From the NCBI GenBank assembly GCA_044892525.1, contig CM097885.1, positions 30,444,001 to 30,508,000 of the forward strand: a stretch of 64,000 nt of DNA, in the 5' to 3' direction. The position numbers and the translations under genes are program-made. The notes below the pieces were generated by a model. That model was not told where the DNA came from and did not search any database. It saw nothing but the letters and a program-made list of their open reading frames with translations. Position 1 is the first letter of the stretch. Every line of letters begins with the position of its first letter. This DNA comes from Schmidtea polychroa (Eukaryota). This document shows, piece by piece, positions 6,641 through 10,374 of the stretch.

Positions 6641-9300
6641 ATCATAATTATATAAAAATAAATTAATTAGTTTATTTATTTGTTGATGATATTAACCATT
6701 TTAGTTGGAAAACAAAACAACCGAGTAAAATTTCATTATTATATTACCAGGTGTTATAGACCCTTGTAAAACCACGGCTCTAATAATTAAATTAGTGATA
6801 TTTAATTCGGAGACGAATTGGCAGATGGCTATATAATTTTGATTAATGTTAATCACAGCTTATAAAAGAAAAACTAACTCACACAAATTTATCATTGTGG
6901 GTAAAAATAAAATTTAGCAAGCAAATTACAAAATAAGTCAATAATTTAAGTCAAATATGGAAAGTATCAAATTTGAAAGTATTTCCGTATATAAAATATA
7001 GTTCTAGAATCTAGATGGATTTCCATCGAATCTCTTACTTGAAGTATCAGATTATATTTCTGTGTCTAAATTGAAAAGTGAATTATTGAATTAAATTGTG
7101 TTGTTAGTTTTAAATTGAACAGTCGAATTGATTTCTGAAAAGTTGTTTTGCTGAAAATAAAACTTAATTGTTCTTGTTATTTTAATTGGCCTTGTTATTT
7201 CTAACAGCATTAGCATCATATTCTAACTGACATTGTCTTAAAACCCATCAAATATATAGGTCTTTTTAACAAAATTTTACAAGGAATTAATAATGTAAAT
7301 ATCATGGAATTCTACTTCATGAGCATACATTTTGTAACATTTATAATAACATTTATAATAAAACGGATTTAAAAATCGAGTTTCTTACATGACACTGATA
7401 AAAGCCAAATAAATTTCAAACTCATATAATATTAGAAATTGTATCGAATATTGCATCACTCTTTATTTTAAAATGAAGATTTGAAAAAATTAATTGCTCT
7501 AATTCGGAAAAATATCAGCTCATTTATTATTGTAATTTAGTAACACTAAATTATATCTTGATATACACGTGTATAATTCGTGTTGCTTAGATTCTACATT
7601 ATCTAACTATTTCCCGCCATTTATGATTTGTTGTTTAAAAGCTTTTCCTGACACTATATCACAATAACTGCAAACCACTCAGCTATTTCCTTATCAACTA
7701 CTGGAGCTTTTACACTGTCTTTCCCTTTTATTAGTATAGCAATTATAATGATACATTGAATCCGATAACCAAAATTATTTTAATTTTGTAATAAACATAA
7801 TAATTGTATTTTTAATAACTACTAAATTATTTGTTCTACTAACATTTAGAAAATATAAATTAATTGTATTCTTATAATTCTTTAATTTTTAATTCTTTTA
7901 TTTAATTCTTTAATTCTATTCTAACATTTTATATGTTTTCGAATGAAAAATTTTCGACTCATTAAAACAATTTTAAATAAATATTGTTTTCTCAAATAAA
8001 TGAGCTAGAAATTATTAAGTTATTTTTAAGATATCTTAATCAATAATATAGCTTAAAGTAAGAATGACAACAAATGTTGAGGTTCTCAACATCTCAACTT
8101 GATGTCTTATATAAATAAAAACACGAATACTAGTTTAAAGTTTTTATTAAATGATAACAATTATGTACACAAAAATAAAAAATATTAACCTTTAATAAAA
8201 ATTGCACAATGATCTGGGCTTTCTCTTTTATTATGTTCCCTTTGCTCTATATCCCTACTTGCTATTACCTGAAATTACCTGATATTCCTGAAATTTTGTA
8301 TGCTCGAATTTTTATTGCAATGTCAATTACTGAATTCGCAATTTTTAGCTTACAAATTTTAGGGTGGTTTGACTGAGGAAAAGGCTGGTTTATATACTAA
8401 AATTTTGTTCTTAACTTTAATTGTAAGGGATCCTCAATTGTCAATAATAGTAGTGTGGTTATATACCCAACCAAAACAGCCCCCCAACAAAAACATGCCT
8501 CCAAATCACTTAAGCTATTAGAAAAACAACCTAAAACTTATACTTTTATAGTATTTTAACCCTATATTTTGAAAACAACCACCCTTAATGACTCTAACTG
8601 TTTTAATCTTTAAAGCCTCAAACTCAAAAGCTTCAAACTAAAAAGAGAATAGAAAAGAAAATGGCATTATGAAAAAGTTAGAGGGCTATTTGATCTTTAT
8701 CAGATTATTGATTTTAAATTATATAAATTAAAAAATAAATGAAAAATAGTAAAACTGCTCTGAGGGGACGGTGGTATTTTTTTTTTTTTTTTTCACTGTC
8801 CCCTCAACAGTTTTTTTTGATCCGGATCATTTTTTTTATTTATCAACCTCTTTCGTTTATCGAATCTCTTCCAATATACAAGCTGGCCAGACTCATACAT
8901 CAGAATCAATCCGATAATAGCAGCACACCTTATTATTCGCTTCTCGCTCACGAAGTCGATTTCATCGGCGTTTTAAGTGTGCTGCTCGAAAGTACAAATG
9001 AATTCGAAAGCGAATTCGAAAGAGGTCCGAAAACAACTGAGAAATAAATGTGCACATTACCGGGATCGATCCGGGGGTGTTCGAAAGACAGGTGGCGATA
9101 ATTACCGGTTCGCCACCATCACCCGTTTCAATATTTTTTTTTTCATATTTATGTTTAAAAAATAATTAATTTATAAAAAAATAAAATAAAATAAAATAAA
9201 TAAAATAAAATATACAAGTACTTTATAAATATAAGATACCCACACTATTTTCAATATTATTTTCAAATTTTTAATATTATTTTATGTTGAAAAAAAACTA

Positions 9301-9372
9301 ACCTCAGATGTGATTTGAACCACTATCCATTTGAACCACTGTGCCAGTCTATTCCCACTGCGCCATCAAGGT
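9301..9372 (-). ncRNA. tRNA-like Pol III unit 1 (in left TIR)
   Basis: 72 nt; A box TGGCGCAGTGG at tRNA position 8; duplicated B box AGTGGTTCAAAT; terminal stem ACCTTG/TGAGGT; T8 run 3 nt downstream. Confidence 0.7.
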
Positions 9373-9525
9373 TTGAACTTTTGTCATTTTTTTAATTTTT
9401 AATTTATAAAAAAATAAAATAAAATAAAATAAATAAAATAAAATATACAAGTACTTTATAAATATAAGATACCCACACTATTATTTTCAAATTTTTAATA
9501 TTATTTTATGTTGAAAAAAAAACTA

Positions 9526-9596
9526 ACCACAGTTAGGATTTGAACCGCTAGCATTTTGAACCACTGTGTCAGTCTAGCCCACTGCGCTATCTAGGA
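9526..9596 (-). ncRNA. tRNA-like Pol III unit 2 (in left TIR)
   Basis: 71 nt; A box TAGCGCAGTGG; B box GGTTCAAATCC; T9 run downstream; paralog of unit 1 at 224-bp spacing. Confidence 0.7.
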
Positions 9597-9843
9597 TTGG
9601 ATTTTTGTTATTTTTTAGACTATAAATAATCGATTCAAGTTCTTTAACTCTTTCCTGTAATTGTTTCATTTTCTTCAATCTTATATCAGCAACATCTACA
9701 GCCTTCATATAAAAATGTCGATACTTTTCATTATCTACCATCAACTCTTTGATGTATTCTAATGGTTCTTCTTCTCTTCTTTTCATTCTCTTATGTTTAA
9801 CTTCATTCAATTCATTTCTCATTCTTTCTTTTAACTCATCCAT
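9574..9843 (-). CDS. Polinton small coiled-coil protein, 89 aa, unknown function
   Basis: AAAAATG start; charged helical composition; shares upstream motif with the pPolB gene; last 16 codons lie in the TIR. Confidence 0.6.
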   Translation of the reverse strand: MDELKERMRNELNEVKHKRMKRREEEPLEYIKELMVDNEKYRHFYMKAVDVADIRLKKMKQLQERVKELESIIYSLKNNKNPILDSAVG

Positions 9844-9870
9844 TTTTATAAATATTTTTTTATTGGATAT
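9844..9870 (-). promoter_or_regulatory. Putative promoter motif ATATCCAATAAAAAA upstream of the 89-aa ORF
   Basis: Same motif at nearly the same distance upstream of the pPolB N-terminal ORF (22679-22706). Confidence 0.5.
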
Positions 9871-10012
9871 ATTAATTTTTGGTAGCTTAAGTTAAAACGT
9901 TTTTGATCTTAAATTTCCAAGAGTTGCCGTTGACCAATCTCATTAAAAATTTGTACAAGTACTAAATCGAGTAGCTGATCAATATTTCGTTAAAAAAAAT
10001 TTGAAAAAAAAT

Positions 10013-10084
10013 GACCGAAATGGGATTTGAACCCATTGGTATTGGCAATGCAGTCGAGTGCTATTACCACTAAGCTATACTCAA
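10013..10084 (-). ncRNA. tRNA-like Pol III unit 3 (tRNA-Cys-like 5' half)
   Basis: 72 nt; GTATAGCTTAGTGGTAATAGCACTCGACTGCA resembles the eukaryotic tRNA-Cys(GCA) 5' half; perfect T arm ATGGG-TTCAAAT-CCCAT; T8 run follows; anticodon and acceptor stems do not pair. Confidence 0.75.
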
Positions 10085-10246
10085 TATAAAATAAGTTGTT
10101 AATGTGTGACTATTTATTGATGAAATTGATAATTAATTATTCATTTTCTCGACAACTACCACTCAGATCCATCTGAAAATTTAAATATATACTAAAATCA
10201 GTACGCTGAATCAGATTCCGTTGAAAAAAAATATCGAAAAAAATTG

Positions 10247-10318
10247 ACCAAAATCGAAAATTGAACCCGGTACTCCCGGTGATAAAATTGAAGCCTATTC
10301 CCACTCCGCTATAATGGC
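10247..10318 (-). ncRNA. tRNA-like Pol III unit 4
   Basis: 72 nt; A box TAGCGGAGTGG; B-box-like GGGTTCAATT; partial terminal stem GCCA/TGGT; T7 run follows; 234-bp spacing from unit 3 with similar downstream flank. Confidence 0.6.
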
Positions 10319-10374
10319 TTACAAAATATATTTAATTAATCCTATTGTGTGTGTGTAAATTTTAATATATAAAA

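What the first reader, a model, noticed from the sequence alone, without database searches (positions are those of the whole stretch)
9290..10320. Array of four tRNA-derived Pol III RNA genes at the Polinton end: candidate VA-RNA analogues
Seen: four co-oriented 71-72-nt units (9301-9372, 9526-9596, 10013-10084, 10247-10318), all pointing toward the terminus. Each has an A box at tRNA position 8 (TGGCGCAGTGG, TAGCGCAGTGG, TAGCTTAGTGG, TAGCGGAGTGG), a B box at T-loop position (GGTTCAAAT; GGTTCAATT in unit 4) and a T7-9 run just downstream. They form two pairs spaced 224 and 234 bp. Units 1-2 lie in the TIR and recur at 22778-22848 and 23002-23073, giving six copies. Unit 3 keeps a tRNA-Cys(GCA)-like 5' half and a perfect T arm, but no unit forms a full cloverleaf. 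Promoter boxes, length and terminators are conserved while the interiors of the two pairs diverge. Established: adenoviruses, relatives of Polintons, make Pol III VA RNAs that counter PKR and RNAi, and tDNA/TFIIIC sites can act as chromatin barriers. Inference: this Polinton encodes small non-coding RNAs (RNAi/piRNA decoys or miRNA-like precursors), and/or uses TFIIIC sites to insulate both ends of the provirus from silencing. I am not aware of this being described for Polintons. Caveat: unit 4 has internal T4 runs that could terminate early.
Basis: partly seen in the sequence, partly recalled or inferred. Interest (0 to 1): 0.88.

Follow-up and report, generated by a model that had tools for sequence, protein, structure and literature searches.

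The report
Promoter-only tRNA relics at Polinton ends
A virus-like jumping element in an animal genome carries worn-down tRNA look-alikes at its ends that keep only the signals for RNA polymerase III, two of them copied from the host's ribosomal-DNA spacer, so they probably act as landing pads on the DNA rather than as decoy RNAs, although a longer folded RNA candidate lies beside them.

Summary
In detail: four A-box/B-box/T-run units, six with the TIR copies, against 0.07 expected by chance.

Units 3-4 are not Polinton-specific. The 485-bp block holding them is 97-99% identical to an antisense tRNA-like array in the host rDNA intergenic spacer (4 of 5 spacers), and sits in an empty site still seen in other subfamilies. 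Units 1-2 are a tandem duplicate of one TIR cassette.

Constraint falls on boxes, spacing and T-run: 0 of 17 critical against 28 of 71 other sites carry shared substitutions. Stems are not kept, and three of four units fold no better than shuffles. Best reading: promoter-only TFIIIC/Pol III landing pads, not VA-like RNAs (0.45).

Transcription was not tested. This scan noted the units three times before in this genome, and Pol III-type units in Polintons of other genomes.

The parts
8449..23924 (.). Polinton/Maverick (capsid, PLA2-integrase, ATPase, protease-like, pPolB-like, zinc finger), 6-bp TSD
   Evidence: the polymerase and protease labels rest on recalled motifs and gene order, as Pfam did not name them
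8449..9621 (.). left TIR (right TIR 22753-23924)
9301..9372 (-). unit 1: TIR cassette, A box + two B boxes + T8
9526..9596 (-). unit 2: tandem duplicate of the TIR cassette, T9; holds the stop codon of ORF89
9574..9843 (-). 89-codon ORF between units 2 and 3, without internal stop in 84 of 87 copies; no family assigned
9879..10363 (-). block shared with the host rDNA intergenic spacer, placed between ORF89 and the capsid ORF
10013..10084 (-). unit 3: tRNA-Cys-like relic, 1 mismatch in 66 to the rDNA-spacer units
10247..10318 (-). unit 4: 0 mismatches in 67 to the rDNA-spacer unit; B box lacks C61; three internal T4
10375..11658 (+). major capsid ORF, head-to-head with unit 4 (ATG 63 nt from the A box)
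8742..9129 (-). unit 5 (new): A-like box 9105-9115, B box 9062-9072, spacing 44; a T4 about 35 nt after the B box, then hairpins up to the first T5
8857..8917 (-). 61-nt pre-miRNA-like stem inside unit 5 (24 pairs, 8 of them G-U)
22778..22848 (+). unit 2, right-TIR copy, head-to-head with the zinc-finger ORF 22214-22678
23002..23073 (+). unit 1, right-TIR copy
23245..23631 (+). unit 5, right-TIR copy (stem at 23457-23517)

Best explanation
The four units are promoter-only tRNA relics: A box, B box, 44-45-nt spacing and T-run, with the tRNA structure gone. SHOWN: this anatomy; constraint on the boxes rather than on interiors or stems; a cassette in both TIRs of two Polinton families; identity of units 3-4 with an array in the host rDNA spacer. 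INFERRED: the block moved from spacer to Polinton. INFERRED and untested: TFIIIC, TFIIIB and Pol III assemble on the cassettes at both ends of the integrated element, and what is selected is the DNA-level effect. That would be a barrier to heterochromatin or read-through from the flanks and an open patch over the divergent capsid and zinc-finger/polymerase promoters. Any 85-95-nt RNAs would be by-products.
For: (1) Copies chosen by capsid protein, with modules found by their downstream flank: 56 of 59 keep A box, B box and T5. After dropping 1 spurious match, 0 of 17 critical box sites against 28 of 71 other sites carry a substitution shared by 3 or more copies, p=0.0009; 0 of 17 against 20 of 71 at over 10% frequency, p=0.01. 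(2) Across four unit lineages mean identity is 0.83 in the A box and 0.90 in the B box, but 0.36 in the interior and 0.41 in the trailer; the A-B distance is 45 in all four and 44 in host tRNA-Cys. (3) The T-stem has 2 of 5 canonical pairs in all 12 commonest TIR haplotypes, and 5' and 3' halves reassort; fold z is 0.03, 0.43, -2.28 and 0.24 for units 1-4. (4) B boxes number 1, 2 or 3 (4, 152, 3 of 159). (5) A sister family with PolB at 36-62% identity has TIR units with other interiors and the same boxes. (6) The innermost cassette faces away from the capsid ATG at 63 nt (45 of 104) or 44-47 nt (28 of 104), and from the zinc-finger ATG at 106-114 nt (17 of 19). (7) Precedent: tDNA barrier needing TFIIIC and Pol III (PMC2040200, abstract); tDNAs and the pseudogene ETC9 shaping neighbouring Pol II transcription (PMC4228148, passages); a tRNA-like A/B element used as a promoter part (PMC4950102, abstract). 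Planarian Polintons are PIWI/H3K9me3 targets (PMC8532177, passages).
Against: No occupancy or transcript data. If deletions of one B-box repeat count as shared changes, the constraint test is not significant (6 of 17 against 38 of 71, p=0.28), and sites are linked, so the p values are optimistic. The TIRs of the two families are more alike (75%) than their polymerases, so their agreement is partly recent exchange. In the sister family only 8 of 12 inner and 7 of 16 outer units are intact. A distant Polinton family in the same genome showed no such unit in 200 kb fetched (its termini were not verified), nor did 31 metagenome relatives (mostly short, without ends). Units 3-4 occur in only 14 of 60 capsid-chosen copies. 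Unit 4 lacks C61, which PMC4228148 (passages) calls critical for TFIIIC binding. T-runs are kept too, which TFIIIC binding alone would not need.
Confidence: 0.45

Rival explanations
1. Passengers. Units 3-4 hitch-hike after one recent capture from the rDNA spacer. The TIR cassette comes from an older capture and persists through TIR copying and tandem duplication. The box conservation was earned in the host and does nothing for the element.
For: The block is 97-99% identical to the spacer and optional. Copy number of units and of B boxes varies. Another Polinton family lacks units. The constraint test loses significance when deletions are counted.
Against: The TIR cassette has no match in the 5 spacers read and has gathered 28 shared substitutions, none at a critical box site. 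Unit 5 varies at B-box positions 60 and 62 but keeps C61. Unit-3-type DNA is also present in the sister family as an older, 85% version.
Confidence: 0.25
2. The short RNAs are the product: 5'-triphosphate, oligo-U-ended RNAs from thousands of copies act as VA/TMER-like decoys that tie up La, Dicer, Argonaute or PIWI loading, or feed tRNA-fragment pathways.
For: Terminators are kept as well as promoters. Unit 3 folds better than shuffles (z -2.3 to -2.7). A planarian pseudo-tRNA is the main source of 5' tRNA halves (PMC7962491, passages). The tRNA-like part of a TMER is enough for function (PMC8223928, passages).
Against: Units 1, 2 and 4 show no structure and no stem conservation. Rfam finds no VA or other viral RNA family. 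Units 3-4 also sit in host rDNA spacers, with 1,479 exact hits for one spacer variant, so the host holds the same templates. The host tRNA-Cys trailer has only T4 runs, so unit 4 may stop early.
Confidence: 0.2
3. The units are heads of a dispersed host tRNA-SINE inserted into the Polinton.
For: tRNA-derived, with thousands of genomic matches (3,182 exact hits against 1 in the control).
Against: All 60 best-identity loci and 29 of 30 genome-order hits continue into Polinton sequence, and the other lies in rDNA spacer. The T-run follows the B box directly; I saw no SINE body or tail in the unit listings. Limit: the 30 hits came from the first 7 Mb of one contig and include four overlapping pairs.
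Confidence: 0.03
4. They are working tRNAs that supplement translation, like the tRNAs of polinton-like viruses.
For: Spacer variants of unit 3 reach 28.9-32.4 bits against Rfam tRNA, at or above the cut-off of 29. tRNAs are reported in PLVs (PMC12220804, passages).
Against: No ARAGORN call. Unit 3 pairs at 2 of 7 acceptor positions. The anticodon stem is unpaired in the Rfam alignment.
Confidence: 0.02

Closest known systems
tDNA / ETC-type TFIIIC sites acting on chromatin and Pol II (fission yeast cen1 tDNA-Ala, PMC2040200 abstract; budding yeast ETC9 pseudogene, PMC4228148 passages)
   Same: Boxes kept without tRNA function; clustered; placed at the borders of a domain and beside Pol II starts.
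   Different: Here they are carried in the TIRs of a virus-like transposon and partly taken from rDNA spacer; binding and barrier activity are untested.
tRNA-like A/B-box element upstream of the Leishmania U2 snRNA gene (PMC4950102, abstract)
   Same: A tRNA relic kept for its boxes, transcribed, serving a neighbouring gene.
   Different: The neighbour there is a Pol III snRNA; here the divergent neighbours are protein-coding ORFs.
Murine gammaherpesvirus 68 TMERs and BLV Pol III pre-miRNAs (PMC8223928, PMC12498455; passages)
   Same: Clustered type-2 Pol III units in a virus; unit 5 has a tRNA-type promoter head followed by a pre-miRNA-like stem.
   Different: Units 1-4 end right after the B box and have no hairpin cargo; unit 5 has a T4 before its stem in 115 of 116 copies; no RNA shown.
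Adenovirus VA RNA (Rfam RF00102; structure recalled)
   Same: Type-2 promoter, in a relative of Polintons.
   Different: No Rfam match; about half the recalled length; no conserved structure.
tRNA and other ncRNA genes of polinton-like and MELD viruses (PMC12220804, PMC8502044; passages)
   Same: tRNA-derived DNA in small dsDNA viruses of this group.
   Different: Those pass Rfam or ARAGORN as tRNAs; the window's units do not, and they sit in the TIRs.

Membership tests
Type-2 Pol III gene | A box | tested here: met
   All four units; 0 of 6 critical sites with shared substitutions. Unit 5 has one mismatch to TRGYNNARNNG (consensus from PMC12498455).
Type-2 Pol III gene | B box GWTCRANNC, 30-60 nt after the A box | tested here: met
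   Units 1-3 and 5 complete, unit 4 lacks the final C; A-to-B distance 44-45.
Type-2 Pol III gene | oligo-T terminator | tested here: met
   T7-9 after units 1-4; unit 5 has a T4 and later a T5.
Type-2 Pol III gene | TFIIIC/Pol III occupancy and a transcript | not testable with these tools
   No run was listed; no ChIP data can be reached.
tRNA gene | cloverleaf with acceptor, anticodon and T stems | tested here: not met
tRNA-derived SINE | dispersed solo copies with body and tail, independent of another element | tested here: not met
Adenovirus VA RNA | conserved, strongly folded RNA; Rfam RF00102 match | tested here: not met
Adenovirus VA RNA | blocks PKR or RNAi | not testable with these tools
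   Needs experiments.
TMER-like tRNA-miRNA RNA | tRNA-like promoter head followed by miRNA hairpins in one transcript (units 1-4) | tested here: not met
   The T-run follows the B box directly.
TMER-like tRNA-miRNA RNA | the same, for unit 5 | tested here: inconclusive
   Head, spacing and stem present; a T4 lies between them in 115 of 116 copies; pair conservation over the whole fold p=0.07.
tDNA-type chromatin barrier | intact boxes at the domain border | tested here: met
   Both TIRs; 56 of 59 modules intact.
tDNA-type chromatin barrier | blocks heterochromatin spreading in a TFIIIC/Pol III-dependent way | not testable with these tools
   Needs reporter and ChIP experiments.
Polinton/Maverick | long TIRs with AGTAGT-type ends, 6-bp TSD, integrase, packaging ATPase, double jelly-roll capsid | tested here: met
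Polinton/Maverick | protein-primed family B polymerase | tested here: inconclusive
   A 1089-aa ORF with recalled PolB motifs; no Pfam polymerase hit.

The most novel reading that the evidence does not exclude
This Polinton lineage runs a two-part Pol III system from its TIRs. First, it has repeatedly taken promoter-only cassettes from the host rDNA spacer to recruit TFIIIC/Pol III, shielding its ends from PIWI-directed silencing or drawing it to nucleolar/tDNA compartments. Second, a TMER/BLV-like RNA of about 380 nt (unit 5) yields a virus-encoded small RNA from its pre-miRNA-like stem. The host rDNA spacer itself would then hold an undescribed antisense Pol III array.
Probability: 0.2. Interest if true: 0.85.

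Novelty: new variant of a known kind. Interest (0 to 1): 0.57.

Why it matters
How Polintons stay active in animal genomes under piRNA silencing is open. If TIR-borne Pol III cassettes are part of the answer, that is a cis-acting counter-silencing device that thousands of copies make easy to test by ChIP and reporters. The link to the rDNA spacer shows a route by which these elements take host non-coding parts, and points to an antisense tRNA-like array in this animal's rDNA. Unit 5 is a concrete candidate for a Polinton-encoded small RNA.

Tried and rejected
Expression: the one run search, with the library word 'fractionation', gave 'no RNA holder listed'. This is no evidence either way, and no reads were laid.

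Relatives outside this genome: two scans of viral contigs found no relative. The metagenome scan gave 31 loci (94 kb) with 3 loose pattern matches and no unit-like cassette, but most are short and lack ends. ARAGORN on 6 of the 31 found no tRNA; an Rfam scan of these loci was not completed. The cluster look-up gave no names. Conservation across species is therefore untested.

Published catalogues: four unit motifs gave 0 hits in the supplements of the planarian tRNA paper PMC7962491 (control motif found; one file not searched, the figure PDF unreadable). Unit-5 stem motifs gave 0 hits in the one supplement of PMC12880550. The 2009 planarian small-RNA paper was not held.

Rejected: absence of T5 inside unit 5 as evidence (68% of shuffles also lack it). 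My first statement that all 30 genome-order hits were Polinton (it is 29). An rDNA-spacer origin of unit 5 or of the TIR cassette (no match in 5 spacers). An Rfam family for unit 5 (only weak matches far below cut-off). A family for ORF89 (Atlas recognition below its threshold). The tree of unit-3 modules does not resolve direction: spacer copies sit in an open fork with family-A copies.
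Full report
Observation. The units are at the stated coordinates, with the stated boxes and T-runs. A generic A-box/B-box/T4 pattern finds these six sites and nothing else in 64 kb, against 0.067 in shuffles. They lie in a Polinton at 8449-23924 with TIRs of about 1.17 kb and a 6-bp TSD. Pfam names the capsid, integrase, PLA2 and ATPase domains. None of the units is a tRNA: ARAGORN finds none, and unit 3 alone scores 26.7 bits against a cut-off of 29, matching the host tRNA-Cys at 48 of 75 columns. The genome is 781 Mb with four large contigs, and its tRNA-Cys matches the planarian table of PMC7962491. I infer a planarian host.

Not a SINE. The family is large: about 3,300 capsid candidates and 3,182 exact hits to a unit pattern, against 1 in the control. 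All 60 best-identity loci continue into Polinton DNA. Of the first 30 hits in genome order, 29 lie beside Polinton ORFs; these come from 7 Mb of one contig and include four overlapping pairs. The 30th led to the main correction.

Units 3-4 are shared with host rDNA spacer. That locus lies upstream of an 18S gene. The block 9879-10363 occurs in 4 of 5 spacers read, antisense, 3.1-3.8 kb before the 18S start, as unit 4 plus two or three copies of unit 3, with one more tRNA-like unit beside them and no Polinton ORF in the three spacers tested. The fifth spacer lacks a larger segment that includes the block (about 2.7 kb, inferred). One spacer variant has 1,479 exact hits. Its 10 listed hits on the four large contigs all lie near 5.8S hits, and on one rDNA contig it precedes 11 of 11 listed 5.8S genes (only the first 100 places are listed). 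The window differs from the spacer by 0 of 67 bases in unit 4 and 1 of 66 in unit 3; the modules are 99.1% and 96.6-96.9% identical.

Direction of transfer. Other subfamilies have an empty site where the capsid ORF and ORF89 stand head-to-head. The ends of the homology coincide with the ends of this indel, with a short repeated word at both. A satellite holds an 84% version of the module and shares the spacer flank beyond it (90.9% over 176), so the module is old in spacer context. Capture from spacer to element is the simplest reading. The tree does not resolve it, and the ultimate origin is open, because a sister Polinton family holds an older, 85% copy in its TIR. Only 14 of 60 capsid-chosen copies carry the block (this set leans to older subfamilies).

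Units 1-2 are one TIR cassette. Many copies have one; this copy has a tandem pair. The B box is a repeat present once, twice or three times (4, 152, 3 of 159). To avoid choosing by the boxes, I took 60 loci found by capsid protein and located modules by their downstream flank: 59 modules in 47 loci, 56 intact, one a spurious match. Among the 58 left, substitutions shared by three or more copies hit 0 of 17 critical box sites and 28 of 71 other sites (p=0.0009). With repeat deletions counted the contrast vanishes (p=0.28), and linkage makes both p values optimistic. Across four lineages the boxes are 83-90% alike and the interior and trailer 36-41%, at a fixed spacing of 45. A sister family, with PolB at 36-62%, has two TIR units with other interiors. 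Its copies are more decayed (8 of 12 and 7 of 16 intact), and its TIR is alike enough to suggest exchange. A distant Polinton family showed no units in 200 kb.

RNA structure is not what is kept. Fold z-scores for units 1-4 are 0.03, 0.43, -2.28 and 0.24 (similar). The T-stem has 2 of 5 pairs in all 12 commonest TIR haplotypes, and acceptor halves reassort. The host tRNA-Cys trailer has only T4 runs, so the internal T4 runs of unit 4 may well terminate it. This speaks against VA-like RNAs for these four.

Mechanism. I commit, at 0.45, to promoter-only landing pads whose DNA-level effect is selected. TFIIIC and Pol III at both ends would limit heterochromatin and read-through from the flanks and keep the divergent promoters open. 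The innermost cassette lies 44-47 or 63 nt from the capsid ATG in 73 of 104 copies, and 106-114 nt from the zinc-finger ATG in 17 of 19. Binding and effect are inferred from yeast and Leishmania precedents (PMC2040200 and PMC4950102, abstracts; PMC4228148, passages). The pressure is plausible, since planarian Polintons are SMEDWI-2 targets (PMC8532177, passages). The rivals are passenger (0.25) and decoy RNA (0.2).

A fifth unit. Outward of unit 1, both TIRs hold an A-like box and a GWTCRANNC box 44 nt apart (1,341 exact hits). The A-like box is the same in 119 of 130 copies; the B box varies at positions 60 and 62 but keeps C61. The 391 nt from there fold at z -8.0 on the outward strand and -4.8 on the other. 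A 61-nt stem has 24 pairs, 8 of them G-U. Six shared substitutions keep its pairing (14 commonest haplotypes of 120 copies); one breaks it in 3 copies, and a 1-nt deletion occurs in at least 11. Over the whole fold, 12 shared changes keep and 9 break pairs, two of them two-sided, against 21 and 42 for rare changes (p=0.07). The sister family has the unit, with the stem better kept than the rest. Against a long RNA: a T4 follows the B box in 115 of 116 copies, and repair of DNA hairpins could mimic the pattern. Two earlier notes mention a folded stretch here; the promoter reading is from my own calls.

Literature. Ten searches listed no paper whose title or abstract start describes Pol III relics in Polinton TIRs or a tRNA-like array in planarian rDNA spacer. 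The library lacks most subscription journals, and Repbase was not checked. tRNAs, snRNAs and miRNAs were found by Rfam in polinton-like viruses (PMC12220804, passages) and predicted tRNAs in MELD viruses (PMC8502044, passages). TMERs and BLV pre-miRNAs are the viral parallels (PMC8223928, PMC12498455; passages). VA RNA structure is recalled. Supplements not seen (one file and the figures of PMC7962491, all bioRxiv files) could list these RNAs.

Verdict. The feature is real, constrained at its promoter boxes and partly host-derived. It is a new variant of a known kind, function inferred, expression untested. Interest 0.57.

Noticed in passing
L241:3251-4300, L279:3480-4280, L280:3010-3810, L281:1947-2980: The host rDNA intergenic spacer holds an antisense array of 4-5 tRNA-like Pol III-type units 2.9-3.8 kb upstream of 18S; the one nearest 18S has no Polinton counterpart. 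Some variants pass the Rfam tRNA cut-off.
   Followed up: partly
L241 about 2120-2440 and 4460-4940: The spacer array is flanked by two stretches that are inverted repeats of each other at about 69-75% identity; possibly an old TIR element inside the spacer.
   Followed up: no
L282 (C97:109500-115000): A spacer variant lacking the array; the junction lies within about 15 bp of the outer border of the block captured by the Polinton.
   Followed up: partly
L278 (C1:144800-147300): A 1.25-kb macrosatellite derived from the spacer carries an 81-84% copy of the unit-3 module with boxes and T-run kept (10 exact hits).
   Followed up: partly
window 9574-9843 (-): An 89-codon coiled-coil-like ORF, open in 84 of 87 copies, head-to-head with the capsid ORF in block-less subfamilies; its stop codon lies inside unit 2.
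   Followed up: partly
window 8760-8810 and 23564-23614: A GC-rich stem closing a long A/T run near the end of unit 5, with one two-sided change shared by 45 copies.
   Followed up: partly
window 11688-13091: The PLA2-like domain is fused to the integrase in one ORF, whereas PMC8502044 describes PLA2 joined to a pX-like domain.
   Followed up: no
   Followed up: no
L236, L239, L242, L246-L248: The sister family is mosaic: capsid 65-96% but polymerase 36-62% identical to the window's, which points to module exchange between families.
   Followed up: partly
G000:C1:269.25 Mb; C4:76.66 Mb; C140, C333, C474: Host tRNA genes stand in long tandem arrays (Cys with a 281-bp period and 993 exact hits; Lys-type 424 bp; Arg-type 278 bp, both labels read by eye).
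   Followed up: no
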